Origin: Candidatus Magasanikiibacteriota bacterium
GTDB taxonomy: Bacteria; Patescibacteriota; Patescibacteriia; Magasanikbacterales; UBA922
Direction: 5' to 3'
Assembly: GCA_016207245.1 (NCBI GenBank)
Contig: JACQQA010000004.1
Span: forward strand, 19,058 to 83,057
DNA: 64,000 nucleotides
Made by a program: the position numbers and the translations under genes. Shown piece after piece: positions 173-58,968 of this stretch (its first letter is position 1; every line of letters begins with the position of its first letter). Under the pieces are notes generated by a model, which saw only the letters and a program-made list of their open reading frames with translations, made no database searches and was not told the origin of the DNA.

Positions 173-1210
173 ATGTCGCGCGAATTTTCCCAGCATATTA
201 ATGACTTTGACGCGATGCGTTTGCGCGTCGCTTCTCCGGAAGTTATCCACGCTTGGTCTCACGGCGAAGTAGTCAAGCCGGAAACCATCAATTATCGCAC
301 GCAAAAGCCGGAAAAGGGCGGTTTGTTTGCCGAGGAAATTTTTGGCCCGACCAAAGACTGGGAATGTTATTGCGGCAAATACAAAAAAATTCGTTACAAA
401 GGCATTGTTTGCGACAAGTGCGGAGTGGAGGTTACTCACTCTTTGGTGCGCCGCCAGCGCATGGGGCACATTGATTTAGCCGCTCCGGTCTCGCACATTT
501 GGTTTTTGCGCTCCGTGCCATCCAAGATCGGTTTAGTTTTGGATATGTCCATTCAGGCCATGGAGAAAGTGATATACTTCGCGTCTTTCGTGATTGTTAA
601 AGTTGACGAGGAACAAAAAAAGCAGACACACGAAGCTTTACGGTCTGAATACAAGAGCAAGAAAAAACAGATTTTAAATGAATTTGACCGCCAGACCAAA
701 GAAGCCAATGATAAAAAATTAAAAGCATCGGCGATAGAAGAATTAGCTAAAGAGCGCGATCGCAAATTAATCGCTTTGGAAGAAGATTTTACCGACGCCG
801 AAGACGAGTTGAAAGATATTCAAATGTTACGAGTGTTATCAGAAAATCGCTATCAGGAATTGGCCTTGCGCTATGGTTATTTGTTTGACGCGGAGATCGG
901 CGCCGAAGCCATCCGCCGCCTTTTGGAGAGATTAAATTTAACAGAAACGATTATTCGGCTGGAAGCGGAGATCAAAGAAACTAAGGGCGCCAAATGCGAG
1001 CGTTTAATTAAGCGCGTTAAACTTTTGCGCAGTTTGGAAAAAAATAAAATTCGGCCGGAGTGGATGATTCTGACCGCGATCCCGATCGTGCCGCCGGATC
1101 TGCGCCCGATGGTGGCTTTGGACGGCGGACGTTTCGCGACTTCCGACCTGAATGATTTGTATCGCCGCGTTATCAATCGCAACAACCGTTTGCGCCGATT
1201 ATTGGAATGA
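173..1210 (+). CDS. rpoC: RNA polymerase beta' subunit, N-terminal segment ending at an in-frame TGA
   Basis: Zn-ribbon [45 protein letters not shown]. Stops at TGA 1208-1210 in the same frame as 1247..4054. Confidence 0.9.
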
Positions 1211-1246: not shown

Positions 1247-4054
<2,808 letters not shown>

Positions 4055-5835: not shown

Positions 5836-5875
5836 AAATACGCTCATTACACAGCAGATGATCGACCCGCCTCAT

Positions 5876-5900
5876 CGCCTGCCTGCCGGCAGGCAGGGCG
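5876..5900. repeat. P20 palindrome copy (CGCCTGCCTGCCGGCAGGCAGGGCG) inside RNase P RNA
   Basis: Perfect GC-rich palindrome just 5' of GGAAAGTCCG. The same core is at 11367, 55277, 56071 and 62944. Confidence 0.85.
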
Positions 5901-6249
5901 GGTAGGAAAGTCCGAGCTCCTTTTTTGACAATGGGTAATACCCATCCTTCATGTCGTGAGGCATTGAAGCGGGATAGCGCCACAGAGACAATACTACTTT
6001 GACACGCCGTAGCCTTGGCGGAGGCGGTAACAAAAACCCGCCTACGCTAAAGCTTCGGCGTGGCGAAGGAAACGTGAAAAGTGTATGGAGGTTTTGGTTC
6101 TAGATCAAAGCTACTATACTCTCCGACCCGTGAGGCGTCGGAGTGGCAAGCCCTGTCTGGAGAAAGTGCAGCGTCCCGATTTAATCGGGATGAAAAGTTA
6201 GCACGTTAGATCGCGTAGAGCAATTTACGCGACAGAGAAATGATCATTG

Positions 6250-6335
6250 CTTCGACTCGCTTCGCTCGCTCAGCACAAGCCCTATTAATAAAATAATATG
6301 ACTTGTCCTGAGCGAGGCCGTAGGCCGAGTCGAAG
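6250..6335. repeat. H-family hairpin element inside RNase P RNA
   Basis: CTTCGACTCG...CTCGCTCAGCACAAG / CTTGTCCTGAGCGAG...CGAGTCGAAG arms around an AT-rich loop, immediately 5' of ACAGAACTCGGC. Confidence 0.8.
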
Positions 6336-6418
6336 GACAGAACTCGGCTTATCGCTGTGGAATGAGCAATTAAAACCCCTCTTGAAAAAAGAGCGGGTTT
6401 TTGTTATCTTATTAATAT

Positions 6419-17827: not shown

Positions 17828-19969
17828 ATGAAGGATGAATTATCCAAAGCTTACGAGGCGCAAAAATACGAAACCGAGATTTACAAACGCTGGGAAGAAA
17901 GCGGGTTTTTCGCGCCGAATAAAGATTCCAAAGCAAAGCCTTTTTGCGTAATTATGCCGCCGCCGAACTCCAACGGCTCATTGCATATCGGCCACGCGGT
18001 TTTTGTGACTTTGGAAGATATTATGATTCGGTACCATCGGATGAAAGGCGAGGCGGCGTTATGGCTGCCCGGAGCCGACCACGCCGGATTTGAGACGCAG
18101 GTAGTGTATCAGAAAAAACTGGAAAAAGAAGGCCGAAATTGGTTTCATATTCCGCGCGAAGAATTATACAAAGAAATCTGGGATTTCACGCAGACAAATA
18201 AAAAAGTAATGGAGGGTCAGCTGCGCCGTTTGGGCGCTTCCTGTGATTGGTCGCGGGAGATTTTTACATTGGATGAAAGAATCGTCAAAACCGTCAACGA
18301 AACATTTAAAAAATTATACGATGACGGACTGGTTTATCGCGGCGAACGCATTATTAATTGGTGCGTTAAGCACCAGACGACCTTGTCTGATTTGGAAGTT
18401 AAGCACGAAGAAAAAGACGGCGCGCTTACGCACATTAAATACTCTATCAAAAACAGCGACAAGTTTATCATCGTGGCTACCACTCGTCCGGAGACAATGC
18501 TCGGAGACACTGCCGTGGCGGTGAATCCGAAAGACAAGAGATATAAAAATTTGATTGGGGAAATCGTGATTTTGCCTTTGGTCGGCCGCGAGATTCCCAT
18601 TGTGGCGGACGCGGCTGTGGAAATGGAGTTTGGCACCGGCGCGGTAAAGGTAACGCCAAGCCACGATCCTTTGGATTTTGAAATCGCCCAACGACATAAT
18701 TTGGAAAAAATTCAAGTGATTGGCCAAGATGGAAAAATGACCGTTGCGGCCGGCGCGCCGTATGCGGGTTTGAAAGCCGAAGAAGCGCGCGTTAAAGTGG
18801 TGGAAGATTTGCGCGCTCTCGGATTGATTGTCAAAGAGGAACCGCACAAACACGTTGTCGGCGCCTGCTATAAGTGCGGCCGCGTGATTGAGCCGTTAGT
18901 TTTGCCGCAGTGGTTTATAAAGGTTAAACCACTCACGGAAAAAGCGTTGAAAGCCGTGAAGGCCGGAAAGACAAAATTTGTCACTGAAAAATTTGAAAAA
19001 ATTTTTTTTCATTGGCTAAAAAACCTGCGCGATTGGAACATCTCGCGACAGATTGTCTGGGGCATTCGCATTCCGGTTTGGTATCGTTCGGCTGACGCTC
19101 ACGGCAAGTCAGAAGAAATTTATGTGGGGACGGAAGCGCCCAAAGGAGACGGCTGGGAGCAAGAAAAAGATGTTTTTGACACGTGGTTCTCTTCCAGCCA
19201 ATGGCCGTTCGCGACTTTGCAAATTACCGGCGATTTCAAAAAGTTTTATCCGACGTCAGTAATGGAAACCGGTTATGATATCCTGCCGTTTTGGGTGATG
19301 AGAATGTTAATGCTGGGGCTGTACGCGACCGGTAGGGTTCCGTTTCAAACAGTATATTTGCACGGTCTGGTTCGCGACAAAGACCGGCAGAAAATGAGCA
19401 AGTCCAAAGGCAATGTGATTGACCCATTGGGTGTGGTGGATATGTATGGCGCGGACGCCTTACGCATGGCTTTGGTGTTTGGCGTGTCCGCCGGCAATGA
19501 TATTGTTATTTCTGAAGATAAAATCCGCGCGCATCGCAATTTTGCCAATAAAATTTGGAATGCCTCGCGGTTTGTTTTGATGAATTTGGGCGATGATTCT
19601 AAACCGACTGACTCAGCTGAATTGAAAAAACAAAAATTGACTTCGGCCGATGCGCATATGCTGAAGCGGTTGTCTGAGGTAGTAAAAAGGGTTACTAAAT
19701 TTTTGGATAAATTTGAATTTCATTTAGCAGCCGAGGAAATTTATCAATTTTTTTGGCACGAATTTTGCGATAAATATTTGGAAGAAGTAAAACCGCGTTT
19801 GCAGATTGAAGGGGAAGAGAAGCGAGCGGCGCAGGCGGTTCTGCGCGAAACGCTCGTCAGCTCGCTTAAACTTCTGCATCCGTTTATGCCATTTGTGACC
19901 GAATCGGTTTACCAAATGCTGTCGGGAAAAGAAAAACAATTTTTAATGATTGAAGAGTGGCCTAAATAA
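17828..19969 (+). CDS. valS: Valyl-tRNA synthetase (short form)
   Basis: PPPNSNGSLHIGHA, TRPETMLGDTAVAVNP, KMSKSKGNVIDP. Start at ATG 17828 (MKDELSKAYE). Confidence 0.9.
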   Translation: MKDELSKAYEAQKYETEIYKRWEESGFFAPNKDSKAKPFCVIMPPPNSNGSLHIGHAVFVTLEDIMIRYHRMKGEAALWLPGADHAGFETQVVYQKKLEKEGRNWFHIPREELYKEIWDFTQTNKKVMEGQLRRLGASCDWSREIFTLDERIVKTVNETFKKLYDDGLVYRGERIINWCVKHQTTLSDLEVKHEEKDGALTHIKYSIKNSDKFIIVATTRPETMLGDTAVAVNPKDKRYKNLIGEIVILPLVGREIPIVADAAVEMEFGTGAVKVTPSHDPLDFEIAQRHNLEKIQVIGQDGKMTVAAGAPYAGLKAEEARVKVVEDLRALGLIVKEEPHKHVVGACYKCGRVIEPLVLPQWFIKVKPLTEKALKAVKAGKTKFVTEKFEKIFFHWLKNLRDWNISRQIVWGIRIPVWYRSADAHGKSEEIYVGTEAPKGDGWEQEKDVFDTWFSSSQWPFATLQITGDFKKFYPTSVMETGYDILPFWVMRMLMLGLYATGRVPFQTVYLHGLVRDKDRQKMSKSKGNVIDPLGVVDMYGADALRMALVFGVSAGNDIVISEDKIRAHRNFANKIWNASRFVLMNLGDDSKPTDSAELKKQKLTSADAHMLKRLSEVVKRVTKFLDKFEFHLAAEEIYQFFWHEFCDKYLEEVKPRLQIEGEEKRAAQAVLRETLVSSLKLLHPFMPFVTESVYQMLSGKEKQFLMIEEWPK

Positions 19970-22054: not shown

Positions 22055-23763
22055 TAATGAAACCACAGGTTGAAAAAATATTGAGAGAGGCGGGTGTAAT
22101 TGGTGAAATTGAATTTACCATACCGCCAAACGCGGAAATGGGTGATTTGGCGTTTGCGTGTTTTGGTTTGGCGAAAGAATGGAAAATGAATCCGGCGGAG
22201 GCGGCGAAGAAAATCATCGTAGAGGCAGGTCGCGACCTGCCCGTACAGGTAGAAAGAATTGAGGCAGTCGGCCCGTATGTGAATTTTTATTTTAATGCGT
22301 CAGAGTTGGCGAAGTTGGTGTTGGGTAATTATGATAGGGACAGATCGCGACCTGTCCGTACCATCCGGCATGTTGGCAGGGGCAAGAAAACCATGGTTGA
22401 GTTCGCCCACCCCAACACCCATAAGCCCGTGCATATCGGCCATTTGCGCAACATGATTACCGGCGAGAGTTTGGTGAGGATTTTGGAGAATCAGGGCAAT
22501 AAAGTGGTGCGGGCGAATTATCAGGGCGATGTGGGGATGCATATCGCAAAATGTTTGTGGGGCATTTTGAGGATTTCAGATTTCAGATTTCAGATTTCAG
22601 ATTTGAAGAGAGCGGACGAACGGGCGAGGTTTTTGGGGGAGACTTACGCGATGGGCGGGCAGGCGTTTGAGAAAGATGAAACGGCGAAAAAAGAGATTGA
22701 AGCGCTGAACATCAAAATTTATAATAAAAACAAATCGGTCTGGGGTTTGTATAAAAAAACCAGAAAGTGGAGTTTGGATTATTTTGATTATATTTACAAA
22801 AAAGTGGGGGTAAAAAAATTTGACCGTTTGTATTTTGAATCGGAAACCTTTGAACTTGGCAAGAAGATTGTTCTGGCCGGACTAAAAAAAGATATTTTTA
22901 AGGCGAGCCAAGGCGCGATTATTTTTGAAGGGAGTAAATATGGTTTGCATGATCGGGTGTTTATCAGCAGCAAGGGACTGCCAACTTATGAAGCCAAAGA
23001 TCAGGGTTTAGCGGCGTTGCAGTTTAAAGAATATCATCCTGATTATATTTATCATGTTGTCGGAAAAGAACAAGCCGATTATTTTAAAGTAGTTTTTAAG
23101 GCGCTTGAATTCACTTTGCCGGAAAGCAAAGGCAAAGAAAAGCATTTGGTTTATGGCTGGGTGAGTTTGAAGGAGGGGAAAATGAGTTCCAGGACAGGAA
23201 ATGTTGTTTTGGCCGAGTGGTTGTTGGATGAGGTGGAGAAAAGAATTACCGAGATAATGAGAGACAGGGAGATTAAAAATAAAGAGAAAGTGATAAAAAA
23301 AGTGGCGAACGCGGCGGTGAAATATTCGATGTTAAAAACAGGCATTGGCAACGATATTGTGTTTGATTTTAACGAGTCGGTTTCGTTAAGCGGGGATAGC
23401 GGACCATACTTGCTTTATATAGTCGCCAGAATTAACAGCATACTAAAAAAATCAAAATTTAAAAATCAAAATTTAAAATTTTCGATGCCGACGAGTATTG
23501 AGCCGGAAGAAAAAAAATTATTATTGGGGCTGGTGAAGTTTGAGGAGGTGGTAAGAGAGGCGGGGGAAAAGAAAGATCCATCAGTGATCGCGAAATATTT
23601 GTTCGGTTTGGCGCAGGGATTTAATAATTTTTACCAATCTTGTCCGGTGCTGGAAGCGGAACCGGCAGCGCGAGTTTTTCGTTTGCGATTGATAAAGAAA
23701 ACAAAAGAAATAATGGAGAGCGGATTAAATTTACTAGGGATTGAGACGGTGGAGGAGATGTAG
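22051..23763 (+). CDS. argS: Arginyl-tRNA synthetase with four in-frame repeat inserts
   Basis: FAHPNTHKPVHIGHLRN and a C-terminal anticodon-binding domain. Inserts at 22224, 22338, 22573 and 23445. Confidence 0.9.
   Translation: MIMKPQVEKILREAGVIGEIEFTIPPNAEMGDLAFACFGLAKEWKMNPAEAAKKIIVEAGRDLPVQVERIEAVGPYVNFYFNASELAKLVLGNYDRDRSRPVRTIRHVGRGKKTMVEFAHPNTHKPVHIGHLRNMITGESLVRILENQGNKVVRANYQGDVGMHIAKCLWGILRISDFRFQISDLKRADERARFLGETYAMGGQAFEKDETAKKEIEALNIKIYNKNKSVWGLYKKTRKWSLDYFDYIYKKVGVKKFDRLYFESETFELGKKIVLAGLKKDIFKASQGAIIFEGSKYGLHDRVFISSKGLPTYEAKDQGLAALQFKEYHPDYIYHVVGKEQADYFKVVFKALEFTLPESKGKEKHLVYGWVSLKEGKMSSRTGNVVLAEWLLDEVEKRITEIMRDREIKNKEKVIKKVANAAVKYSMLKTGIGNDIVFDFNESVSLSGDSGPYLLYIVARINSILKKSKFKNQNLKFSMPTSIEPEEKKLLLGLVKFEEVVREAGEKKDPSVIAKYLFGLAQGFNNFYQSCPVLEAEPAARVFRLRLIKKTKEIMESGLNLLGIETVEEM
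22224..22247. repeat. P24 palindrome copy 1 (GGCAGGTCGCGACCTGCCCGTACA) in frame
   Basis: Encodes GRDLPVQ. See 22338 and 38002. Confidence 0.8.
22338..22362. repeat. P24 palindrome copy 2 (GGACAGATCGCGACCTGTCCGTACC) in frame, different frame from copy 1
   Basis: Encodes RDRSRPVRT. Confidence 0.8.
22573..22604. repeat. Tandem heptamer array (CAGATTT) x4.5 in frame
   Basis: Read directly; encodes ISDFRFQISDL. Confidence 0.9.
23445..23482. repeat. AT-rich 14-nt-period array (AAATCAAAATTTAA) in frame
   Basis: Encodes KSKFKNQNLKF. The 18-mer ATCAAAATTTAAAATTTT (23465-23482) recurs at 38947-38964. Confidence 0.85.
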
Positions 23764-36661: not shown

Positions 36662-37726
36662 ATGATTAACCTCGCAATCAACGGTTTTGGCCGGATCGGC
36701 CGGCAGGCCTTTAAGGTGGCGTTTGACCGGAAGGATTTTAAAATCGTCGCGGTCAATGATTTGACCGATACTAAAACCTTGGCGCATCTTTTACAACATG
36801 ATACGGCTTATGGCAAGTATAAATATACTGTAGGTTTTGACGAAAAGAATATAATTATTGGCAATCCTTCGGCTTGGTTCGACTCCGCTCACCACGGGTC
36901 GCTCAGGACAAGAAAGGTTCCGGTGCTCGCTGAAAAAGACCCCGCGCTTCTGCCGTGGAAGAAATTAAAAGTTGATGTGGTGATAGAAAGCACCGGCCGT
37001 TTTACCAAAAAAGAAGACGCATCATTGCATTTAAAAGCCGGCGCTAAAAAAGTTATTTTGTCCGCTCCGGCGAAGTCCTCCTCATCGGCGGGCGAGGGCG
37101 GCGGAGTTCCCACTTACGTCCGCGGAGTTAATTGCGGAAAAGTCGGCAAAGAAACTTCCTGCGTGATCAACAATGCCTCTTGCACCACGAATTGCATCGC
37201 GCCGGTCATGGCGGTTTTAGATGAAAAATTCGGCATTGAAAAAGCGATGATGTCCACTGTCCACGGCTATACCGCTGACCAGAATCTGCAAGACGCTCCG
37301 CACAAAGATTTGCGCCGCGCCCGCGCGGCCGCGGAAAATATTGTTCCCACATCCACCGGCGCGGCCAAAGCCGTGGGCGAAGTCAAGACAAATTTGCAGG
37401 GGATTTTTGACGGCGTGGCTTTTCGCGTGCCAGTGCCGACCTGTTCATTGTCCGATTTAACAATTGTTTTGAAAAAAAATGTAACAAAAGAAGAAGTGAA
37501 TCAGGCGCTGATTGACGCTTCCAAAACCAAAAGGTTTGAAGGAATTTTATTCTGCACCAACGAGCCGTTAGTATCAGCTGATTATGTCGGCAACACCTAT
37601 TCATCAATCGTCGATTTGCCGTTGACCAATGTGGTCGGCGGCAATCTCGTCAAAGTCGTGGCGTGGTATGATAACGAAGTAGGGTATTCGCATCGTCTTG
37701 TTGAAATGGCCAAGCTGTTTGCTTAA
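36662..37726 (+). CDS. gap: Glyceraldehyde-3-phosphate dehydrogenase with in-frame H-family insert
   Basis: INGFGRIGRQ, ASCTTNCIAP, WYDNEVGYS. Insert at 36866-36912. Confidence 0.92.
   Translation: MINLAINGFGRIGRQAFKVAFDRKDFKIVAVNDLTDTKTLAHLLQHDTAYGKYKYTVGFDEKNIIIGNPSAWFDSAHHGSLRTRKVPVLAEKDPALLPWKKLKVDVVIESTGRFTKKEDASLHLKAGAKKVILSAPAKSSSSAGEGGGVPTYVRGVNCGKVGKETSCVINNASCTTNCIAPVMAVLDEKFGIEKAMMSTVHGYTADQNLQDAPHKDLRRARAAAENIVPTSTGAAKAVGEVKTNLQGIFDGVAFRVPVPTCSLSDLTIVLKKNVTKEEVNQALIDASKTKRFEGILFCTNEPLVSADYVGNTYSSIVDLPLTNVVGGNLVKVVAWYDNEVGYSHRLVEMAKLFA
36866..36912. repeat. H-family element in frame in gap
   Basis: CCTTCGGCTTGGTTCGACTCCGCTCACCACGGGTCGCTCAGGACAAG encodes PSAWFDSAHHGSLRTR, just before the conserved AEKDPALLPW. 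Confidence 0.8.
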
Positions 37727-37727
37727 T

Positions 37728-38903
37728 ATGAAAATCAAAACCATCAAACAAATCCGCAATTTATCCGGCAAGCGTGTTTTGGCGCGAGTGGATTTTAACG
37801 TACCGCTTGAAAATGGAAAAATTATTGATGACTCGCGGATTTTGGCGTCAATTCCGACGATTGAATATCTAATGAAAAAAGGCGCGAAGGTGATTTTGGT
37901 TTCGCATTTGGGGAGGCCGGAGGGGCTTGATAAAAAATTGAGTTTAGCGCCAGTGGCGAAGAGAGTGGAAGAATTGATGAAAAAGAAAGTGAAATTGATA
38001 AGGACAGGTCGAGACCTGTCCGTACCTGACAAAATGAAAAATGGCGAGGTGGTGATGCTTGAAAATATTCGTTTTTTTCCTGATGAGGCTAAAAATGAGA
38101 ATGATTTTGGCAAAAAGTTAGCCGGCATAGCCGATATATTCGTGCTGGATGGTTTTGCAGTGGCGCATCGGGATTCCGGATCAGTTACAGGCGTTGCCAA
38201 GCATCTACCGAGCTGTGCGGGTTTGCTTTTGGAAAAAGAGATAATCGGTTTGTCAAAAGCGATTGAAAAGCCGAAGAAACCGTTTGTGTTGGTTTTGGGC
38301 GGGGCAAAAATGGAAACAAAATTGCCGGTGTTGAAAAATTTATTGCCAAAAGCCGATTATGTTTTAATCGGCGGCGGGATTTTTAATACTTATTTGAAAG
38401 CCAAAGGCTTTAAAGTTGGCAAGTCTTTGGTTGATGGCGATTATTTAAAAGAAGCATTAAAATATTGTTCAATAAAAAAAGTGATTAAGCCGGTGGATGT
38501 AATTGTGGGAAAAGAGAGTGGAAAGGTGGCAAGAGTTGTGCCGGTGGGCAAAAAGGGATACTTCGCTGCGCTTAGGATGACAGAAGGGGTGTATGATATC
38601 GGCCCGCAGACGATTCGTTTATACGCAAAATATATCAAGCAAGCCCAGACTATCGTTTGGAATGGCGCGATGGGGTATTTTGAACAAAAACCGTATGATG
38701 TCGGCACATTATCAATCGCGCGTTTGGTTGCCTCGCGTTCCAAAGGCAAGGCATTCGGTATTATCGGCGGCGGAGAAACCTTGCAGGTGATGGAAAAAGT
38801 GAAAATGACTGAATTCGTTGACCTGGTCTCCACCGGCGGCGGCGCGATGCTGGAGTTTCTTTCCGGTCAGAGATTGCCCGGGCTTAAACTGTTGACAAAA
38901 TAA
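37728..38903 (+). CDS. pgk: Phosphoglycerate kinase with two in-frame repeat inserts
   Basis: RVDFNVPLENGKIIDDSRI and C-terminal STGGGAMLEFL. Start ATG 37728 is 1 nt after the gap stop. Confidence 0.92.
   Translation: MKIKTIKQIRNLSGKRVLARVDFNVPLENGKIIDDSRILASIPTIEYLMKKGAKVILVSHLGRPEGLDKKLSLAPVAKRVEELMKKKVKLIRTGRDLSVPDKMKNGEVVMLENIRFFPDEAKNENDFGKKLAGIADIFVLDGFAVAHRDSGSVTGVAKHLPSCAGLLLEKEIIGLSKAIEKPKKPFVLVLGGAKMETKLPVLKNLLPKADYVLIGGGIFNTYLKAKGFKVGKSLVDGDYLKEALKYCSIKKVIKPVDVIVGKESGKVARVVPVGKKGYFAALRMTEGVYDIGPQTIRLYAKYIKQAQTIVWNGAMGYFEQKPYDVGTLSIARLVASRSKGKAFGIIGGGETLQVMEKVKMTEFVDLVSTGGGAMLEFLSGQRLPGLKLLTK
38002..38026. repeat. P24 palindrome copy 3 (GGACAGGTCGAGACCTGTCCGTACC) in frame in pgk
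   Basis: Encodes TGRDLSVP. Confidence 0.8.
38561..38589. repeat. H-related element (CTTCGCTGCGCTTAGGATGACAGAAGGGG) in frame in pgk
   Basis: Encodes FAALRMTEG. Related to 58935-58968 (..CGCTCGGAATGACAG). Confidence 0.6.
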
Positions 38904-38946
38904 TTTTGTTTTTTATAAGTTTTACTGTATAATTTAAAGTGTAAAT

Positions 38947-38990
38947 ATCAAAATTTAAAATTTTTACATTTTAATTTTTAATTTTTTATT
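38947..38990. repeat. AT-rich array in the pgk-SIMPL spacer sharing an 18-mer with argS
   Basis: ATCAAAATTTAAAATTTT followed by TACATTTTAATTTTTAATTTTTT. Confidence 0.75.
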
Positions 38991-39909: not shown

Positions 39910-42900
39910 ATGCCTTACGATGCAAATAAAAACGAATTAGAAATTCTTAAGTTTTGGCAAGACAACAAAATTTTTGAAAAATCTATTTCTGAACGCCCGG
40001 AAAATAAGCCATATGTATTTTATGACGGGCCGCCATTTGCCACCGGCCTGCCGCATTACGGCCATATTTTAGGCTCGGTGATTAAAGACGTGGTGCCGCG
40101 TTATCAGACCATGAGAGGTCATCGCGTGCGCCGGCGCTGGGGTTGGGATTGCCATGGTTTGCCGATTGAAAATTTAGTTGAAAAAGAACTGGAAGTTTCC
40201 GGAAAAAAACAGATTGAGGAGAAATTGGGAGTCGAAAAATTTAATGATACCTGCCGGTCAAAAGTTTTAATGTACACAAAAGAGTGGAAGAAAATGGTGG
40301 ACCGCATCGGTCGCTGGATTGAGTTTGATAATGCCTACAAAACCATGGATTCCACGTATATGGAATCAGTTTGGTGGGCGTTGAAAACAATTTGGGGCAA
40401 GGGTTTGATTTATGAAGGCCGGAAAGTTTTGATGTATTGTCCGCATTGCGAAACTCCGGTGTCAAAAGCCGAGGTGGCGATGGATGATAGTTATAAAGAT
40501 ATTACGGAAGAAGCGGTCGTTGTGAAATTTAAGATACAAGACACAAGAAACAAACAAATTACAAAGTCAAAATTCAAAATTTTAAAAGACAGGTCGGTAT
40601 ATATTCTTGCTTGGACGACGACGCCGTGGACATTGCCCGGGAATGTGGCGCTCGCTGTTGGGAAAGATATTGATTATGTATTGGTTGAAGTTGATGGTGA
40701 AAATCTGATTTTGGCTAAAGATAGAGTTGAGGCCGTAATGGGAGATAAGAGATATGAGATAAAGCCTGCCCTGAGCTTGTCGAAGGGAGATAAAATGAAA
40801 GGCTCGGATTTGGTTGGTTTGGAATATGAACCGCTGTTTGAGATTCCGGCGATTCGGGAGACCAGTAAAAAAGCGTGGTATGTTACGACCGCGGATTTTG
40901 TTACCACGGAAGAAGGCACTGGCGTGGTGCACACCGCCGTGGTTTACGGCGAGGACGACTATAATTTAGGAATAAAAATCGGTTTGCCGGTAGTGCCGCT
41001 TTTGAATGATGCCGGACACTTCAATGAATTCGCGCCGGAATTTATCCGCGGCCAATATTTTAAAAAATCGGAGAAATTAATTAAAGATGATCTGGAAAAC
41101 CGCGGCTTGTTGTTCGCGCGGGAAAATCATACGCATTCTTATCCGCATTGCTGGCGGTGCGACACGCAATTATTTTACAACGCGATTTCCGCGTGGTTTA
41201 TTGATATTCAAAAAATAAAAAAGCGCCTGATTAAATTAAACGAAAAAATAAATTGGTTTCCGGAGCACTTGAAACACGGCCGCTTTTTGAATATTTTGGA
41301 AACCGCGCCGGATTGGAACATCTCGCGCAATCGGTATTGGGCCACGCCGTTACCGTTTTGGCGTTGCGGAGAAGATGGCTGTGATAATGTTGCGTGCGTT
41401 GGAAGCGTTGCTGAGTTGAAAGAGAAGGCAATTAATTTTGAGGAAGCGTATGACGGTAAAAAAATTGAAGAGATGGATCTGCATAAGCATTTGATGGATA
41501 AAATCAAATTAAAATGCGACAAGTGCGGCGGAGAAATGAGTCGGACGCCGGAAGTGATTGATTGTTGGGTTGAATCCGCGTCAATGCCGTTTGCTGAATT
41601 TCATTATCCGTTTGAAAATAAAGCCGTATTTGAAAAACGTTTTCCGGGCCAGTACATTGGCGAATACATCGCTCAAACCCGCGCCTGGTTCTACTATATG
41701 CATGTCATGGCGACTCTGCTGTTTGACGATATCAGTTTTGAAAATGTCGTCTGCACCGGCACGATTTTGAATGAGAAAGGCGAGAAATTATCCAAATCTA
41801 AACGCAATTATACGGACCCGTGGGTGATTATTGAACAGTACGGCGTGGACGCTTTGCGCTATTACCTGATGACTTCGGTGGCCATGCAAGCCGATGATTT
41901 GTATTTCAACGACCGCGAGGTGCGCGATGTTTATAATAAAGTGATAAACATGCTGTGGAATGTGGTGGAGTTTTATAAAATGTATGCTGGCGAAAGTCAT
42001 AAAGTCACAAAGTCTGTAAAGTCAGAGAATGTGTTGGACAAGTGGATAATGGCGAGGTTAGGGCAGTTGGTCCGCGAGGTGACGGAAAATTTGGATAAAT
42101 ATGACACGGTGCGGGCTGGCCGGCCGATTAAGGATTTTATTGATGATCTTTCAACTTGGTACTTGCGCCGTTCGCGCGATCGGTTCAAGGGGGACAATGC
42201 CGAAGACAAACAGGCGGCATTAGCCACTTTGCACGATGTTCTTTATATCCTTTCAAAAGTGATAGCGCCGTTTGTGCCGTTTATGGCAGAGAGAGTGTAT
42301 CATGTAACATGGAACATGGAACATGGAACAACGAGAGAATCGGTGCATTTAGAGAGTTGGCCTACGCCGGCAGATGTTACCAATGATGATGTTCAATTGT
42401 TGCAAGATATGGGAAAGGCGAGGAAAATTGTAGAGATGGGATTGGCGTTGCGGGCAGAAGCCGGGGTCAGAGTTCGCCAACCACTATCTATGTTGCAAGT
42501 TATAGGTTACAAGCTACAATATGAATTGGCGAAGATTGTGAAAGAAGAATTGAATGTGAAGGTGGTTGAAAATGTCGGAGATATTGAAGTTGTTGAAAAT
42601 ATTGTGGTGAAAGAAGGCGGGGAATTGAAGGTGGCGTTAGACACGCGTTTGACCAATGAATTAAAAAAAGAGGGTTTGATACGTGAAATCATCCGCGCGA
42701 TTAACCAGACGCGGAAAGAACAGAAATTAACGATTCAAGATAGAGTGACGATTATTTATGAGACCGATGATGAAATATTAGAGCAGGTTTTTGCTGAATT
42801 TGGAGAGGAAATTAAAAAAGCCGTGCTTGCGGACGAGTTAAAGGAGGAGAAAAACGACGGTGCAGAAGCTGATTTAGACGGTCATAAAATTAAACTGTGG

Positions 42901-48671: not shown

Positions 48672-51122
48672 GTGAAGGAGAAAATTAAAAAAGTCAGATG
48701 TTGTTCACTCTGCCGCCAGCCTGGGCATACAAAAAAAGATTGTCAAGCGGGGCGAGTGAAAGAAAAAAACACGAGCGGGAAGTTCGTGTTAATTGGCGTT
48801 CAGCAAAAACACCAGAAATCATCGCATGTTATTAATCTTAAAGATAAAAAACCGGAATCAATTTGGGATGACGTGAAAGTGTTTAGCGAGAATAGAGTGC
48901 CAACAACCGAGCGCCGTGTGGTCAATTTGGCGGAAATGATCAGAGCCAACGAATCGCAGAGAAACAAGATTAACCGTCCGCTAATTGAGCTACCACAGCC
49001 CACTAATACGCGACCACTAATAGACACCAATTTGAAAAAGGTAATGTTTTTATCTCCCTTCGGCAAGCTCAGGGCAAGCTCTATCTCTTATTTCCCATCT
49101 CTTATCACTGTCACGATTAAAGAGCGGATTGTTGGAGCAAAAGAAGGGATAGTAAATGGCGTTTGTTTGGTAAAAGAAAGAATGGTGAGTGTACTTACTT
49201 TCAAAAAGTTTGCTTACAGCGTCATATCAGTCGCGCTTTTGGCCGCGTTACCTTTTCCCGCCATCGGTTATTATTCCAGCGTGAAAGATACCAGCGCGCG
49301 AGTGGTGGAGGCGAGCACGAACGCGTTTTTGTCTTTGCAGTCATCAACTGTCGCGGCGATGAACGCGGATTTGGGCCAAGCTGAATATGATTTGAACGCG
49401 GCGCTGGAATCTTTTCAAACCGCTGATTTGATTTTAGATAAAGAGCACCGCGCTTTGCAATATGTGGCGAGCGTATTACCAATTATCGGTCGGCAAGTCA
49501 AAAGTCGCCAGCATTTGTTGGTCGCCGGACATCATTTGGCTTTGGGCAATACGTATTTAGTAAAAGGAATTGAAGAAATTAATAAACAAAATCAGCTGTC
49601 ATTGGGCGATAAGATTGGGCTTTTAGCCGACTATCTCCGTTCCGCTGCGCCGCAATATGAAGAAGCGTTAACGGAATTGGACGGCGTCTCTTCGGAGGTT
49701 GTGCCCGCGGAGTATCAAAAATCATTTGTTGATTTTAAACTGCTTTTTGCCGCTTTTGTTAATGATCTGCGGGATTTAATCGGCCTCGCGGACGCGCTGG
49801 AAGCCGGTTTCGGCCATGATCAGTTGAGGCGTTATCTGCTGGTGTTTCAAAACAATGATGAATTGCGGCCCACCGGCGGGTTTATGGGAAGTTTCGCGCT
49901 GTTGGATGTGCAAAAAGGCAGGGTTGTCAACTTAGATATTCCCGGCGGCGGCACCTATGATCTGCAAGGCCAGTTGGACGAATATGTGAAACCGCCGTTG
50001 CCGTTGCAGTTATTAAATAAGCGTTGGGAGTTTCAGGACGCGAATTGGTTTCCGCATTTTCCGACAGCCGCGAAAAAAATCGCGTGGTTTTACGAACACG
50101 GCAGGGGAGCCACGGTTGACGGCGTGATTGCGATCAATGCCACAGTTCTAGAACGTTTGTTATCAGTGTTCGGACCGGTGCAAAGCGCGGATAAAAATTT
50201 AGTTATCGCCAGTTCTGACGCGGTGGAAAAATTGCAACAGCAGATTGAATTTGATTACAACAAAAATGAAAATAAGCCGAAAGAAGTTTTGTCGGAATTG
50301 GCGCCGCAGATTTTGGTCGAATTCGGCAAGTTGGATACGGTCGGCGTAATGCGCTTGGTCAGCGAATTGGAAGATGCTTTGCAAAAAAAAGAAATCCAAT
50401 TATATTTTAATGATGATTCAACGCAGGCTAAGATGGTTGAGTTCGGCTGGGCCGGCGGAATCAGCCCGGTCGCGGCAACCCAAGACTATTTATCGGTTGT
50501 TAATGCCAATATCCACGGCCAGAAGTCAGACGCTAAAATTAAACAGTCAATTGAACACCAAGCCGTGGTCCAATCAGACGGTTCAATTATAGACACGGTG
50601 TTTGTGCGTCGGACGCATACTGGTGTTGAGGGTGTGCCGCTTTATGGCGTGAATAATGTTGATTACTTAAGAATTTATGTGCCAAAAGGGTCGGAATTGT
50701 TGGAGGCGGGCGGGTTTACATTTCCACCTGAGGACGTTTTTCGGGTGCCGGAAGATTGGTACAAAGATGATGTTGATTTGGCAAAACAGGAGAAAGAAGC
50801 CGGCATTCATCCGCAGAGCGGAACGCGGATTACCAATGAATTTGGCAAAACTGCTTTTGGCAATTGGGTGATGGCCGCGCCGGGCAATACCGCTACCGCG
50901 TATTTTGTTTATCGTTTGCCGTTTAAAGCCGATCCCCGCTATAGTTTATTGGCGCAAAAACAATCCGGCATAGACAGTGATTTTACCACTCAAGTGATTT
51001 ATCCGGACGGCTGGTCGCCGGTGTGGTCGGCTGATGGACAAATGCAGTTAGCTTCCAACGGCGCGTCGTATTCAGGTATTTTGGAAGAGGATAAAGTAGT
51101 GGGGGTGGTGATGGGGAGATAA
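48672..51122 (+). CDS. DUF4012-domain envelope protein with N-terminal CCHC zinc-knuckle-like motif
   Basis: LLVFQNNDELRPTGGFMGSFALLDV (DUF4012). N-terminal CSLCRQPGHTKKDC. TM at FAYSVISVALLAALPFPAIGYY. GTG start 9 nt after TGGTATAAT (48654-48662). Confidence 0.8.
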   Translation: MKEKIKKVRCCSLCRQPGHTKKDCQAGRVKEKNTSGKFVLIGVQQKHQKSSHVINLKDKKPESIWDDVKVFSENRVPTTERRVVNLAEMIRANESQRNKINRPLIELPQPTNTRPLIDTNLKKVMFLSPFGKLRASSISYFPSLITVTIKERIVGAKEGIVNGVCLVKERMVSVLTFKKFAYSVISVALLAALPFPAIGYYSSVKDTSARVVEASTNAFLSLQSSTVAAMNADLGQAEYDLNAALESFQTADLILDKEHRALQYVASVLPIIGRQVKSRQHLLVAGHHLALGNTYLVKGIEEINKQNQLSLGDKIGLLADYLRSAAPQYEEALTELDGVSSEVVPAEYQKSFVDFKLLFAAFVNDLRDLIGLADALEAGFGHDQLRRYLLVFQNNDELRPTGGFMGSFALLDVQKGRVVNLDIPGGGTYDLQGQLDEYVKPPLPLQLLNKRWEFQDANWFPHFPTAAKKIAWFYEHGRGATVDGVIAINATVLERLLSVFGPVQSADKNLVIASSDAVEKLQQQIEFDYNKNENKPKEVLSELAPQILVEFGKLDTVGVMRLVSELEDALQKKEIQLYFNDDSTQAKMVEFGWAGGISPVAATQDYLSVVNANIHGQKSDAKIKQSIEHQAVVQSDGSIIDTVFVRRTHTGVEGVPLYGVNNVDYLRIYVPKGSELLEAGGFTFPPEDVFRVPEDWYKDDVDLAKQEKEAGIHPQSGTRITNEFGKTAFGNWVMAAPGNTATAYFVYRLPFKADPRYSLLAQKQSGIDSDFTTQVIYPDGWSPVWSADGQMQLASNGASYSGILEEDKVVGVVMGR
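49054..49081. repeat. H-family element in frame in the DUF4012 gene
   Basis: CTCCCTTCGGCAAGCTCAGGGCAAGCTC encodes SPFGKLRAS. Confidence 0.75.
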
Positions 51123-54921: not shown

Positions 54922-56040
54922 ATGGAAATCAAAATCTGCCAAAACAAGCAAGAATGGGATAGTTGGGTGTCAACCCTTCGACTCACTCCGTTCGCTCAGG
55001 GCAAGCCGGCGGAGTTTTTGCAGTCTTGGGATTGGGGCGAGTTTCAAAAAAATGTCGGCAATGATGTGTTGCGTTTGCAGGTTGTTGATGGCGGACAGGT
55101 TTTATGGCAAGGACAGGGATTTACGCACAGATTGGGATTGGGGATGAAGTATTTGTATGCACCCAGAATGCAGAATGCAGATAACAGAATGCAAAGTGTG
55201 TGTGATTTTTTGAGAGGCAAAGGATTTGCGTTTGTCAGAATTGAGCCGGACGAGGAATTAGGAATTATGAATTATGCCATGCCTGCCGGCAGGCAGGAAT
55301 TAAGGACAACGAAAAATCGACAGCCGCAGAACACTCTTGTTTTAAATATAAGCAAAACAGAAGAAGAATTCCTTGCCGCGATGCACGAGAAGACTCGTTA
55401 TAACATTCGTCTGGCAGAAAAAAAGGGCGTAGTGATTAAATCAGAAAAAAATATTGATGTTTTTTGGCAGTTGAATTTGGCCACGACAGAGCGGGATAAA
55501 TTCCGAAGCCATCCGAAAGAATATTATAGAAAAATGCTGGAAAATAATTTTTGCCGCCAGCTTACCGCGTATTACCCCTTCGACTCACTTCGCTCGCTCA
55601 GGGCAGGCTCTTTCGACTCCGCTCCCCTCGGCCTGAGCTCGGGACGAAGGCAGGGCAAACCGATAGCGGCGATTTTGTTGGCAGCGTTCGGCGACACAAT
55701 TACATATCTGCATGGTGTGTCCGGAAATGAGCATCGTAATTTGATGTCGCCGTATCTTTTGCAGTGGGAAGGAATTAAATTAGGAAAGAAGCTGGGCTGT
55801 CAGTATTATGATTTTGGCGGTATCGCGCCGGACGCGAAACTCAGCGCAACAACGAGTTTTAATAATTTTTGCTGGCCAGCCGACCATCCGTGGACAGGCA
55901 TTACTAGATTTAAAGCCGGCTTTGGCGGGGAGCGGCGGGATTATCCGGGAGCGGTGGATGTGGTATTGAGCGGGTGGAGATATGTGTTGTATAAGATTGC
56001 GGCAAGGTTGGTCAAGTCCATAAAGTCTTTAAAGTTGTGA
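54922..56040 (+). CDS. FemAB-family aminoacyl-tRNA-dependent peptidoglycan peptide-bridge transferase with at least five in-frame repeat inserts
   Basis: FLQSWDWGEFQKNVG, KTRYNIRLAEKKGV, YYDFGGI, GITRFKAGFGG. Confidence 0.8.
   Translation: MEIKICQNKQEWDSWVSTLRLTPFAQGKPAEFLQSWDWGEFQKNVGNDVLRLQVVDGGQVLWQGQGFTHRLGLGMKYLYAPRMQNADNRMQSVCDFLRGKGFAFVRIEPDEELGIMNYAMPAGRQELRTTKNRQPQNTLVLNISKTEEEFLAAMHEKTRYNIRLAEKKGVVIKSEKNIDVFWQLNLATTERDKFRSHPKEYYRKMLENNFCRQLTAYYPFDSLRSLRAGSFDSAPLGLSSGRRQGKPIAAILLAAFGDTITYLHGVSGNEHRNLMSPYLLQWEGIKLGKKLGCQYYDFGGIAPDAKLSATTSFNNFCWPADHPWTGITRFKAGFGGERRDYPGAVDVVLSGWRYVLYKIAARLVKSIKSLKL
54974..55005. repeat. H-family half element in frame in fem
   Basis: CCCTTCGACTCACTCCGTTCGCTCAGGGCAAG encodes LRLTPFAQGK. 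Confidence 0.8.
55164..55193. repeat. Q-family element (CAGAATGCAGAATGCAGATAACAGAATGCA) in frame in fem
   Basis: Encodes RMQNADNRMQ. This is the uninterrupted reference copy for 62935-62980. Confidence 0.85.
55255..55305. repeat. E-family heptamer array interrupted by a 21-nt P20 palindrome block (55277-55297)
   Basis: GAATTAGG AATTATG AATTATG [CCATGCCTGCCGGCAGGCAGG] AATTAAG; compare the uninterrupted 10023-10053. Confidence 0.85.
55575..55658. repeat. Complete H-family hairpin in frame in fem
   Basis: CCTTCGACTCACTTCGCTCGCTCAGGGCAGG ... CCTGAGCTCGGGACGAAGG encodes PFDSLRSLRAGSFDSAPLGLSSGRRQGK. Confidence 0.8.
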
Positions 56041-56067: not shown

Positions 56068-56070
56068 TTC

Positions 56071-56133
56071 GCCTGCTTGCCGGCAGGCAGGCATTTCGTA
56101 TGTGTCCTGTTATCTGCGTCCTGCATCCTGTCG
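56071..56133. repeat. P20 palindrome (GCCTGCTTGCCGGCAGGCAGGC) next to a reverse Q-family element
   Basis: The palindrome is followed by GTCCTGTTATCTGCGTCCTGCATCCTG. Confidence 0.8.
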
Positions 56134-58934: not shown

Positions 58935-58968
58935 TTCCTCGACTCACTTCGTTCGCTCGGAATGACAG
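58935..58968. repeat. H-family element in the rpsL 5' leader
   Basis: TTCCTCGACTCACTTCGTTCGCTCGGAATGACAG ends 12 nt before the rpsL ATG. Confidence 0.75.

What the first reader, a model, noticed from the sequence alone, without database searches (positions are those of the whole stretch)
36866..36912. CCTTCGAC...CTCAGGGCAAG hairpin family is inserted in frame in glycolytic and translation genes
Copies occur in: gap (36866-36912, PSAWFDSAHHGSLRTR, just before the conserved AEKDPALLPW); gpmI-1 (14071-14115); pgk (38561-38589, FAALRMTEG); ileS in reverse orientation (40765-40789, PALSLSKG); the DUF4012 gene (49054-49081, SPFGKLRAS); fem (54974-55005 and the complete hairpin 55575-55658); RNase P RNA (6250-6335); the rpsL leader (58935-58968); and the core of the rpsG-fusA inverted-repeat element. 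Forward copies give ..FD(S/K)LR(S/A)G..-type peptides and reverse copies give ..LSLSKG... That is the signature of one nucleotide element read on either strand. Full copies are self-complementary hairpins. This mirrors the behaviour of Rickettsia palindromic elements (selfish palindromes tolerated inside ORFs and RNA genes), here in a very different, reduced genome.
Basis: partly seen in the sequence, partly recalled or inferred. Interest (0 to 1): 0.6.

Follow-up and report, generated by a model that had tools for sequence, protein, structure and literature searches.

The report
Tiny hairpin repeat inserted inside essential genes
A 20-45 base GC-rich hairpin repeat has been inserted in frame into surface loops of essential enzymes and into RNase P RNA of a Candidatus Magasanikbacteria genome. 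Its core hairpin turns out to be shared by bacteria of more than a dozen phyla and by viral contigs, and I could find no description of it.

Summary
The window (Candidatus Magasanikbacteria, CPR) carries about 13 units of one repeat at 8 sites: gap, gpmI, ileS, a DUF4012 gene, a FemAB gene (2 sites), RNase P RNA and the rpsL leader. A structural pattern gives 17 hits against 1.6±1.3 in shuffles. Orthologues 85-98% identical lack the insertions. These are whole-codon additions (24 nt in ileS, gap-inner and fem1; 75 nt in fem2) in beta-turns or variable loops. The pgk and rpsG-fusA 'copies' are not supported, and only the RNase P pair is a strong hairpin.

The unit is a 4-bp covarying stem around a conserved loop, TCGACARGCTC, or a longer loop beginning TCGAC and ending GCTC. 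It is not specific to this genome. A covariance model built only from other phyla finds the window's copies (E=2e-8).

Best reading: a selfish REP/RPE-like mini-hairpin repeat. It inserts without target duplication, nests in its own loop, prefers heptamer arrays, and then decays. The mobilising enzyme is unknown: the window has no transposase, and no Rfam family or paper matched.

The parts
36865..36908 (+). Outer hairpin unit in gap (TCCT|TCGGCT..TCGCTC|AGGA). Together with the tail to 36912 it encodes the 15-aa insertion PSAWFDSAHHGSLRT in a beta-turn.
   Evidence: The orthologue L002 (92% aa identity) has only CCTTCGACTTCGCTCAGTACAAG here (7 aa). L006 and 113 of 120 orthologues have nothing.
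36875..36898 (+). Nested inner 24-nt unit, TGGT|TCGACTCCGCTC|ACCA + CGGG, inserted in the loop of the outer gap unit.
   Evidence: It is the only difference from L002 at this site. Pattern hit 36875-36894. R1 13.2 bits, E=0.17.
14070..14111 (+). Outer unit in gpmI-1 (CCCT|TCGGCT..TCGCTC|AGGG). The whole segment encodes about 12-13 extra residues, PSAPSTSSGRVAQ.
   Evidence: Insertion relative to PDB 1ejj and to the adjacent paralogue gpmI-2.
14079..14097 (+). Nested inner short-form unit, TCCT|TCGACAAGCTC|AGGA, in gpmI-1.
   Evidence: Best R1 hit in the window: 35.4 bits, E=2.2e-8. Pattern hit.
40763..40786 (-). Exact 24-nt short-form insertion in ileS (reverse orientation: CCTTCGACAAGCTCAGGGCAGGCT). 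It encodes PALSLSKG in the CP1 editing domain.
   Evidence: Absent from L002, L004, L005 and L006. Boundaries are unambiguous and there is no target duplication. R1 32.5 bits, E=1.7e-7. PDB alignment.
49057..49080 (+). 24-nt short-form insertion CCTTCGGCAAGCTCAGGGCAAGCT in the variable N-terminal linker of the DUF4012 protein (SPFGKLRAS).
   Evidence: R1 23.1 bits, E=1.4e-4. P0123 (80% identity) shows the predicted empty site FVSPISYLLSLIS. P0121 (83%) carries a decayed copy, SHFGKFKVVS.
54974..55006 (+). Long-form unit, CCCT|TCGACTCACTCCGTTCGCTC|AGGG + CAAGC, in the FemAB-family gene. About 8 extra residues (TLRLTPFA).
   Evidence: Absent from 11 homologues.
55576..55650 (+). 75-nt insertion in the FemAB-family gene: two tandem forward units (55576-55603 and 55609-55644). 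It encodes PFDSLRSLRAGSFDSAPLGLSSGRR.
   Evidence: The 25 residues are absent from all 11 homologues, between AYY and QGKPIA. Not a strong hairpin (z=-0.2).
6248..6337 (+). Inverted pair of long-form units (6248-6275 forward, 6306-6337 reverse) forming a 90-nt helix inside RNase P RNA. It lies between the 3' strands of P2 and P4, the position of the optional helix P19.
   Evidence: RF00010 match 5851-6362 with this stretch as an insertion. Fold -44.3 kcal/mol, z=-6.98. Pattern hits. The P19 assignment is my reading of the consensus line.
58935..58962 (+). Long-form unit, TTCC|TCGACTCACTTCGTTCGCTC|GGAA, in the 5' leader about 20 nt upstream of the rpsL coding sequence (MPTINQ...).
   Evidence: (E=5.8e-5, seed). 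The stem covaries (C-G instead of T-A at the loop-closing pair).
10698..10719 (-). Candidate diverged unit, GGCT|TCGGCCCTGAGCTC|AGCC, in a glycosyltransferase gene.
   Evidence: Pattern hit only. nhmmer E=2.4. Not verified against orthologues.
19084..19104 (+). Candidate diverged unit, TCGT|TCGGCTGACGCTC|ACGG, in a class I aminoacyl-tRNA synthetase gene.
   Evidence: Pattern hit only. nhmmer E=3.9. Not verified.
38561..38589 (+). Not a member by any test. It is possibly a decayed copy of the sister motif TTCGCTGCGCTCAGRATGACA.
   Evidence: No hit. 9-nt indel relative to L002. Similar string in L027.

Best explanation
The segments are copies of a very short, GC-rich, hairpin-forming interspersed repeat. 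It behaves as selfish or neutral DNA, in the manner of REP elements, Rickettsia palindromic elements and yeast mitochondrial GC clusters.

The basic module is 5'-NNNT-[TCGAC...GCTC]-ANNN-3', followed in this lineage by CARGC(T). The loop is TCGACARGCTC (short form), TCGACTTCGCTC, or the 20-nt long-form loop (TCGACTCGCTTCGCTCGCTC in most metagenome copies; TCGACTCAC... in the window's fem and rpsL units).

Shown: new copies appear at new sites as precise additions without target-site duplication. Some lie inside the loop of an existing unit, and some inside heptamer tandem arrays.

Inferred: in this gene-dense genome most landing sites are genes, so the copies that persist are those that add whole codons, contain no stop codon, and fall in beta-turns or variable linkers, or in a peripheral helix of RNase P RNA. 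They are then presumably translated or transcribed as harmless extra loops.

Shown: copies then decay by point mutation.

Inferred: the covarying stem with an invariant loop implies recognition of a folded single strand (DNA at the replication fork, or RNA) by a conserved protein. I think a trans-acting single-strand-specific enzyme (HUH/RAYT-like or other) is the most likely mover. This step is not demonstrated.
For: 1. Family membership and excess over chance.

2. Lineage-specific presence:
- The ileS 24-nt unit is absent from four syntenic relatives.
- The nested gap unit is absent from L002, which is 85% nt-identical overall.
- The fem insertions are absent from 11 homologues.
- Only 7 of 120 GAPDH orthologues have an insertion at the beta-turn. 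Apart from the P0001/P0002 pair, which share one insertion, each carrier's nearest relative (92-98.5% identical) lacks it. That gives 5 separate events of this family in 6 of the carriers. The seventh, P0099, carries a different GC-rich hairpin.

3. Different sites in relatives: L004 ileS (LRQAQG), L004 radical-SAM gene, L004 pgk, L002 ileS N-terminus.

4. Turnover: at least 3, and up to 5, of about 15 indels of 6 nt or more between the window and L002 belong to this family.

5. Decay: L127 has C-to-T changes. P0121 has a diverged peptide. The L002 stem carries a mismatch.

6. Nucleotide-level rather than peptide-level entity: all three frames and both strands are used.

7. Hairpin: 92.8% of stem cells are paired against 65.3±2.1% in shuffles (0/500). 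All 4 pairs show double changes, and the slid controls collapse. Stems also covary within the window: CCCT/AGGG, TGCT/AGCA, TCCT/AGGA, TGGT/ACCA, TTCC/GGAA.

8. Tolerated positions:
- GAPDH beta-hairpin: residues 72-81 have pLDDT below 50, between strands 63-67 and 84-89 of a confident N-terminal domain.
- gpmI turn.
- ileS CP1.
- fem turn.
- Insertion point in RNase P RNA.

9. No target duplication.

10. Orientation bias: by my tally, 15 of 16 verified intragenic units have the TCGAC..GCTC strand on the sense, positive-GC-skew strand.

11. Independent assembly: L001 (Logan assembly of SRR12113383) carries the identical gap insertion.
Against: - No transposase of any kind is encoded in the 64 kb.
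- No gene family recurs next to copies in 360 loci from elsewhere, apart from phage or GTA structural genes.
- Single units are thermodynamically marginal hairpins (z about 0).
- Near-identity of the loop across many phyla is unusual for REP-type elements, which are normally species-specific. This could instead point to a host function.
- All five GAPDH insertions share one orientation and frame. Both clean 24-nt insertions share one target context. This is compatible with targeting, but also with recombination between lineages or homology-dependent copying.
- Movement has not been observed. It is inferred from presence/absence among related genomes.
Confidence: 0.7

Rival explanations
1. The copies spread without a transposase, by replication errors. 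Template switching or microhomology-mediated copying from an existing copy, plus slippage inside the unit, would create and expand the hairpins in place.
For: - Both clean 24-nt insertions (ileS, DUF4012) lie between the same heptamers, TTATCTC|YTATCTC. These are the only two places in the window with paired TATCTC.
- In other phyla the CARGC-tail subfamily sits inside heptamer arrays: 5/80 against 4/2166 control flanks, p=6e-6.
- The long-form loop reads as a tandem duplication, CTTCGACTCG/CTTCGCTCG.
- Tandem arrays exist in L124, L013, L059 and L074.
- Nested units sit at one fixed point of the outer loop.
- No transposase was found.
Against: - Most copies in the window share no flanking similarity with each other.
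- Slippage does not explain an invariant 11-nt loop with covarying stems across phyla.
- The heptamer association is absent from the proteobacterial subfamily: 0/217.
Confidence: 0.18
2. The hairpin is a functional cis-element kept by selection, for example a protein-binding site on mRNA or DNA that affects stability, processing, methylation or replication. The coding insertions would then be a cost of having it.
For: - The loop is conserved and the stem covaries across more than 13 phyla.
- One copy sits immediately upstream of rpsL.
- The reverse strand can form tandem G·A pairs next to the stem (read from the sequence).
- The long form contains GANTC (GACTC).
Against: - Copies are absent from close orthologues and decay where present.
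- Positions are not conserved.
- Copies fall in arbitrary frames in unrelated genes.
- No Rfam family matches at either threshold.
Confidence: 0.08
3. The similarity is chance GC-rich low complexity, or the peptides are selected protein modules.
For: The units are short. Parts of the long form are simple CTTCG/CTCG repeats (period-9 row at 6249-6270).
Against: - 17 pattern hits against 1.6 in shuffles.
- Hits from a model trained on other phyla at E=2e-8.
- The same nucleotides are read in three frames and on both strands, and also occur in RNA genes and leaders.
- The peptides are absent from orthologues.
Confidence: 0.02

Closest known systems
Rickettsia palindromic elements (RPE)
   Same: Interspersed repeats inserted in frame into conserved housekeeping genes at positions compatible with the fold. 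They are also inserted into RNase P (M1) RNA and tmRNA. No known transposase; regarded as selfish or neutral (PMC2229807, PMC10969869). Here: gap, gpmI, ileS, fem, DUF4012 and RNase P RNA.
   Different: RPEs are about 100-150 bp long palindromes restricted to Rickettsia. Here the module is 19-28 nt (24-nt insertions) with a 4-bp stem and a conserved loop. Units nest and form tandems. The core is shared by many phyla.
REP / REPIN elements mobilised by RAYT (IS200/IS605-type Y1 transposases)
   Same: Short GC-rich hairpin repeats, high copy number, single units and inverted pairs. No target duplication, probable single-strand recognition, stems that covary. The proteobacterial copies of this family are intergenic inverted pairs that look like REPINs.
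   Different: REPs are extragenic, species-specific and (from my knowledge) carry a conserved 5' GTAG-like tetranucleotide next to a longer stem. Here the stem is 4 bp, the loop is the conserved part, there is no GTAG, copies are intragenic, and no RAYT was found in the window.
Mobile GC clusters of yeast mitochondrial DNA (and derived 'byp' elements)
   Same: 30-80 bp GC-rich palindromic clusters scattered in a more AT-rich compact genome. They fall into several sequence classes and occur as single units and tandem arrays. They are inserted in frame in VAR1/rps3 and in rRNA genes, changing product size. They are highly polymorphic between strains, and the mobility mechanism is unknown (PMC4464245).
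   Different: Organellar and eukaryotic, with unrelated sequences. No cross-lineage conservation comparable to the loop described here.
Alpha-proteobacterial intergenic repeats (CIR, RIME, Bru-RS)
   Same: CIRs are about 110 bp, conserved between alpha-proteobacterial species, with two stem-loop arms joined by a linker and a conserved motif in a terminal loop (PMC2229807). The proteobacterial composite form seen here also has two small hairpins with a linker.
   Different: CIRs are strictly intergenic with stops in all frames and are defined by GANTC sites. I could not obtain their consensus sequences, so any overlap with the proteobacterial form is untested.

Membership tests
Rickettsia palindromic elements | About 100-150 bp element forming a long palindromic stem-loop; families RPE-1 to RPE-10 of Rickettsia | tested here: not met
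   Units are 19-44 nt and insertions 24-75 nt. Single units fold weakly. The organism is Candidatus Magasanikbacteria. Sequence identity to RPE consensus was not compared because no RPE sequence was available.
Rickettsia palindromic elements | In-frame insertion in conserved protein genes at structurally tolerated positions | tested here: met
   gap, gpmI, ileS, fem and DUF4012.
Rickettsia palindromic elements | Insertion in structural RNA genes (tmRNA, RNase P RNA) | tested here: met
   A 90-nt inverted pair lies inside the RF00010 match. No tmRNA gene is in the window.
REP/REPIN-RAYT | Cognate RAYT (Y1 HUH transposase) gene, typically flanked by REPs | tested here: inconclusive
   No transposase Pfam domain in about 40 window ORFs. 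No recurrent neighbour in 360 loci. The rest of the genome could not be scanned.
REP/REPIN-RAYT | Extragenic location | tested here: not met
   6 of 8 sites in the window are inside protein-coding genes and one is in an RNA gene. The feature is met for proteobacterial plasmid or chromid copies, which have no annotated feature under the match.
REP/REPIN-RAYT | Imperfect palindrome whose stem is the main conserved part, with a 5' GTAG-type tetranucleotide (my knowledge of the family) | tested here: not met
   The conserved part is the 11-nt loop, the stem is 4 bp and variable, and no GTAG is present.
MITE | Terminal inverted repeats plus target-site duplication, about 50-500 bp | tested here: not met
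   The ileS insertion is exactly 24 nt with unambiguous ends and no duplication. Units are single arms.
Any Rfam RNA family | Score at or above the gathering threshold | tested here: not met
   Nothing overlaps the units in the window or in 18 loci of other phyla. In E-value mode only chance miRNA-like hairpin hits appear, far below threshold.
Pan-bacterial NNNT-TCGACARGCTC-ANNN hairpin family (defined here) | Conserved 11-nt loop closed by a 4-bp complementary stem | tested here: met
   Model R1, built from 59 copies of other phyla, scores the window's gpmI, ileS and DUF4012 units at 23-35 bits. Covariation shown.

The most novel reading that the evidence does not exclude
The 19-24 nt module (4-bp stem, invariant TCGACARGCTC loop, short tail) is a pan-bacterial mobile unit and would be among the smallest known. 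It is moved by a conserved, still unidentified single-strand-specific enzyme of host or phage origin, which targets heptamer tandem arrays and the element's own loop. Its near-identity across more than 13 phyla reflects that recognition constraint plus horizontal spread on phages. In gene-dense CPR genomes it is a major source of protein length variation.
Probability: 0.25. Interest if true: 0.85.

Novelty: new variant of a known kind. Interest (0 to 1): 0.65.

Why it matters
- It would extend the RPE phenomenon (selfish repeats remodelling essential proteins and ribozymes) from one genus to the Candidate Phyla Radiation. It would also explain part of the unexplained short insertions in CPR proteins and RNAs.
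- A hairpin with an invariant loop in many phyla and in viral contigs points to a conserved recognition partner that could be searched for directly by phylogenetic profiling or by hairpin pull-down.
- Recurrent insertion at one GAPDH beta-turn offers a natural experiment on which loops tolerate insertions.
- Practically, these units seed spurious ORFs and peptides (LSLSKG, FDKLRAG, LRQAQG) in annotation, and they can mislead alignment and phylogeny of marker genes.

Tried and rejected
- Rfam at gathering threshold on the window and on 18 loci, and in E-value mode on a composite copy: nothing relevant.
- Full-text searches for the encoded peptides, for the nucleotide strings, and for palindromic or in-frame elements in CPR/Patescibacteria: no description found.
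- The CIR paper was not held, so overlap with CIR/RIME/Bru-RS remains untested.
- Cognate transposase: Pfam on about 40 window ORFs. All-against-all clustering of ORFs from 120 and then 360 element-bearing loci found only phage or GTA structural genes, from the viral contigs.
- Thermodynamic folding of single units gave no signal (z about 0). The stem is supported only by covariation.
- A general association with period-7 arrays over all 611 units was not significant under a strict criterion. It appears only in the CARGC-tail subfamily.
- The AlphaFold model from a 14-sequence alignment is poor overall (mean pLDDT 54). Only its N-terminal domain was used.
- Considered and rejected: assembly artefact (identical insertion in an independent Logan assembly) and adaptor or vector contamination (varying stems, many genomic contexts, isolates as well as MAGs).
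Full report
**Source and context**

The GAPDH encoded at 36662-37726 is 100% identical to a protein of a Candidatus Magasanikbacteria MAG (Patescibacteria/CPR). Its relatives are almost all from that group. The window is gene-dense and almost all genes are on the + strand. GC content is 41-50% and GC skew is positive in nearly every 2-kb bin, so cumulative skew rises almost monotonically. The window contains rpoC, several aminoacyl-tRNA synthetase genes, a glycolytic cluster (two gpmI, gap, pgk, eno), RNase P RNA, four tRNAs, rpsL-rpsG-fusA and the start of 16S rRNA.

**Checking the observation**

Both boxes are over-represented: CCTTCGAC occurs 6 times against 1.5 expected, and CTCAGGGCAAG with up to 2 mismatches occurs 21 times against 9.7. 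An nhmmer profile built from eight other listed copies recovers the gap copy as the only clear non-seed hit (E=0.013). It does not find the pgk site or the rpsG-fusA element.

A structure-aware pattern was also tested: 4-bp complementary stem, TCGRC, 1-36 nt, CTC, stem. It gives 17 hits against 1.64±1.30 (maximum 6) in 100 dinucleotide-preserving shuffles. After removing two evident false hits and collapsing overlaps, this is about 13 units at 8 verified sites, plus two weak candidates (10698, 19084).

**The insertions are real, in frame and lineage-specific**

- **GAPDH.** It has 15 extra residues between two beta-strands relative to solved structures. In a low-confidence AlphaFold model whose N-terminal domain is nevertheless confident, residues 72-81 have pLDDT below 50, between strands 63-67 and 84-89.
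- **Syntenic loci.** Loci from four related genomes were fetched.
- **ileS.** PALSLSKG is an exact 24-nt addition, AGCCTGCCCTGAGCTTGTCGAAGG. It is absent from all four relatives, has unambiguous ends and has no target duplication. It lies in the CP1 editing domain.
- **gpmI-1.** It has about 12-13 extra residues at a turn, relative to PDB 1ejj and to the adjacent paralogue.
- **FemAB-family protein.** It has an 8-residue and a 25-residue insertion absent from 11 homologues.
- **DUF4012.** The insertion is absent from P0123, whose sequence FVSPISYLLSLIS equals the predicted empty site. P0121 carries a diverged copy.
- **RNase P RNA.** An inverted pair of units forms a 90-nt helix (z=-7.0), inserted between the 3' strands of P2 and P4.
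- **Independent assembly.** An independent Logan assembly carries the identical gap insertion.

**Anatomy**

All units share the form 5'-NNNT | TCGAC...GCTC | ANNN-3'.

- The loop is TCGAC-AAG-CTC in the short form (ileS, DUF4012, gpmI-inner).
- The loop is TCGACT-X-TCGCTC in the long form, with X of 8-12 nt (fem, RNase P, rpsL leader).
- The stems differ between copies yet stay complementary within the window: CCCT/AGGG, TGCT/AGCA, TCCT/AGGA, TGGT/ACCA, TTCC/GGAA.
- The gap and gpmI insertions are nested. An inner unit sits at the same point of an outer unit's loop (TCGGCT | inner | TCGCTC).
- The closest relative, L002 (85% nt identity over 13.7 kb), has only the outer gap unit. The 24-nt inner unit was therefore gained, or lost in L002, since their split.
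- Single units are weak hairpins by energy (z about 0).

**The family is not specific to this genome**

By my arithmetic, about 9 matches are expected by chance in 596 Gb.
- Carriers include Actinobacteria, Alpha-, Beta- and Gammaproteobacteria, Chloroflexi, Acidobacteria, NC10, Armatimonadetes, Bacteroidota, Ignavibacteria, Planctomycetota, Verrucomicrobia, Lentisphaerae, Dadabacteria and Saccharibacteria. They include cultured isolates.
The 25-mer long form hit the limit in metagenome contigs with GC content from 0.36 to 0.74.
- Among 88 distinct copies in those loci that were not selected by the scan pattern, the four positions flanking the 11-mer are complementary far more often than in shuffles. 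At position 3 the figures are 92% against 49±5%; at position 4, 88% against 44±5%. At least ten stem types occur.
- On a stem-stratified alignment, 92.8% of cells pair against 65.3±2.1% in shuffles (0/500). All four pairs show double changes, and the slid controls fall to 20-53%.
- A covariance model built only from these foreign copies finds the window's gpmI, ileS and DUF4012 units at 35.4, 32.5 and 23.1 bits. It also finds copies in relatives.
- In Proteobacteria the typical form is an intergenic composite of two such hairpins in opposite orientation with CCGTTCG/CGAACGG outer arms. There are up to 16 places per Sphingobium or Novosphingobium replicon, always outside annotated genes.
- In-frame copies also exist outside CPR. 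By my reading, examples are a Dehalococcoidia nucleotidyltransferase-like gene (L030) and a Saccharibacteria leucyl-aminopeptidase-like gene (L020).

**Dynamics**

- Relatives carry units at other sites: L004 ileS (LRQAQG, frame 2), the L004 radical-SAM gene, L004 pgk, and the L002 ileS N-terminus.
- At least 3, and up to 5, of about 15 indels of 6 nt or more between the window and L002 belong to the family. Others are different GC-rich segments.
- At the GAPDH beta-turn, 7 of 120 orthologues carry an insertion. Six of these are this family.
- Apart from the window/L002 pair, each carrier's nearest relative lacks the insertion: P0020 against P0069 at 98.5%, P0013 against P0037 at 94%, P0008 against P0010 at 93%, P0107 against P0109 at 92%.
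- This implies 5 separate events, or transfers, for this family. All are in the same orientation and reading frame (CCT TCG...).
- L127 shows a copy degraded by C-to-T changes.
- By my tally, 15 of 16 verified intragenic units in the window and its relatives have the TCGAC..GCTC strand on the sense strand. The expected fraction is about 0.6, because one reverse frame contains TGA.

**Target context (unexplained)**

The two clean 24-nt insertions lie in the same orientation between the heptamers TTATCTC | YTATCTC. These are part of a (YTATCTC)n array that is present uninterrupted in orthologues. They are the only two places in the window with paired TATCTC.

In other phyla the CARGC-tail subfamily is likewise embedded in heptamer arrays of other sequence (GACGAGT, CTACTGC, AGGCAGT and others). 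The count is 5/80 against 4/2166 control flanks, p=6e-6. The proteobacterial subfamily shows none (0/217) (the all-units test was not significant). The window is rich in period-7 arrays, some adjacent to other GC-rich palindromes.

**What it most likely is**

The data fit a selfish or neutral interspersed hairpin repeat that gains new copies as precise insertions. It persists in genes only where it adds whole codons in loops, and it then decays.

The invariant loop with a covarying stem implies recognition of a folded single strand by a conserved protein. The absence of target duplication and the strand bias recall IS200/IS605- or RAYT-type single-strand transposition. However, no such gene is in the window or recurs near copies elsewhere, and REP hallmarks are missing.

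A replication-error route (template switching, slippage) is the main rival. It would account for the heptamer context, the nesting point and the tandem forms. A conserved host function cannot be excluded given the cross-phylum loop, but it is disfavoured by the absence of copies from close orthologues and by their decay.

**Comparison with known systems**

- **RPE.** Behaviour matches: in-frame insertion in conserved genes and in RNase P RNA. Size, structure and distribution do not match.
- **REP/REPIN.** Elements resemble the proteobacterial form. The defining features tested here are not met.
- **Yeast mitochondrial GC clusters.** These are a close functional analogue: in-frame insertion in VAR1, insertion in rRNA, tandem arrays, classes, unknown mover.
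- **Rfam and literature.** No Rfam family and no paper in the searchable library describes the motif. Overlap of the proteobacterial composite with CIR, RIME or Bru-RS could not be tested.

**Verdict**

The RPE-like interpretation is partly supported. The new element of the story is that the unit is a tiny hairpin with a conserved loop, shared across bacterial phyla and their viruses. I rate it a new variant of a known kind, with interest 0.65.

Noticed in passing
window 1208-1210: rpoC is split by an in-frame TGA at a conserved Leu. The window reads ...RLRRLLE*NAPEVICRNEKRM..., whereas L004 has LLELNAPEV. This gives ORFs 173-1210 and 1247-4054. It could be a sequencing error, a pseudogene or a real polymorphism.
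   Followed up: partly
window 5875-5897, 55275-55297, 56069-56091, 62941-62963: A second GC-rich palindrome family, CCTGCCTGCCGGCAGGCAGG, has four copies. One is in the P3 loop of RNase P RNA. One is inside the FemAB gene (AMPAGRQE), directly after a (GAATTAT)3 array. Two are intergenic.
   Followed up: partly
window 22212-22246, 22327-22361, 37991-38025: A third palindrome family, (A/G)GGACAGGTCGCGACCTGTCCGTAC. Two copies lie in the N-terminal part of argS and one in pgk (TGRDLSVPD, a region of variable length among orthologues).
   Followed up: partly
window 10023-10052, 11106-11168, 22572-22604, 23447-23481, 38931-38990, 40531-40581, 40742-40762, 42301-42330, 55164-55193, 62671-62764: There are many period-7 tandem arrays (and period-8 arrays at 9676, 11315, 45174, 62352). 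Several are inside genes, for example ileS DTRNKQITKSKFKILKD and fem MQNADNRMQ. They are reminiscent of cyanobacterial STRR heptamers (from memory). Some flank GC-rich palindromes.
   Followed up: partly
window 37072-37092: A second GAPDH insertion, SSSSAGE (21 nt, GC 0.67), follows SAPAK. The same spot carries unrelated GC-rich insertions in P0006, P0037 and P0101, so it is another insertion hot spot.
   Followed up: partly
window 59908-59988: The rpsG-fusA spacer is a strong inverted repeat (18-nt perfect arms GTGATTTTTATCATTTCC, -33.8 kcal/mol, z=-6.9). Its core is not a member of the family studied, and its nature is unknown.
   Followed up: partly
window 5851-6362: RNase P RNA is 512 nt against a 367-position model. 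Besides the P19-position helix it has inserted stretches in the P3 loop, in P12 (about 50 nt) and one further 26-nt insertion.
   Followed up: no
window 13312-16514: Two tandem gpmI paralogues, 44% identical. Only the first carries the hairpin insertion.
   Followed up: partly
L002 9322-9349; L002 near ileS codons 30-40: The closest relative has its own 30-nt insertion, GGCCTTCGAGTCCCGAGCCTCAGGCCGAGG (SAFESRASGRG), near the ileS N-terminus. It is a variant unit with a 5-bp stem, GGCCT/AGGCC, and is absent from the window.
   Followed up: yes
L251-L370 (viral contigs), e.g. L279, L284, L290, L323, L342: Many element-bearing IMG/VR contigs share a block of ORFs whose recurrence and order suggest portal, capsid, protease, tail and terminase genes of alpha-proteobacterial prophages or gene-transfer-agent clusters. 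This is my reading of the sequences, not a Pfam test. The element sits between or at the start of these genes.
   Followed up: partly
L124 7491-7605; L013; L059 3786-3952; L074: In other phyla the unit also forms head-to-tail tandem arrays: a 24-nt period with five copies in L124, a 37-nt period in L059, and a 14-nt partial unit in L013.
   Followed up: no
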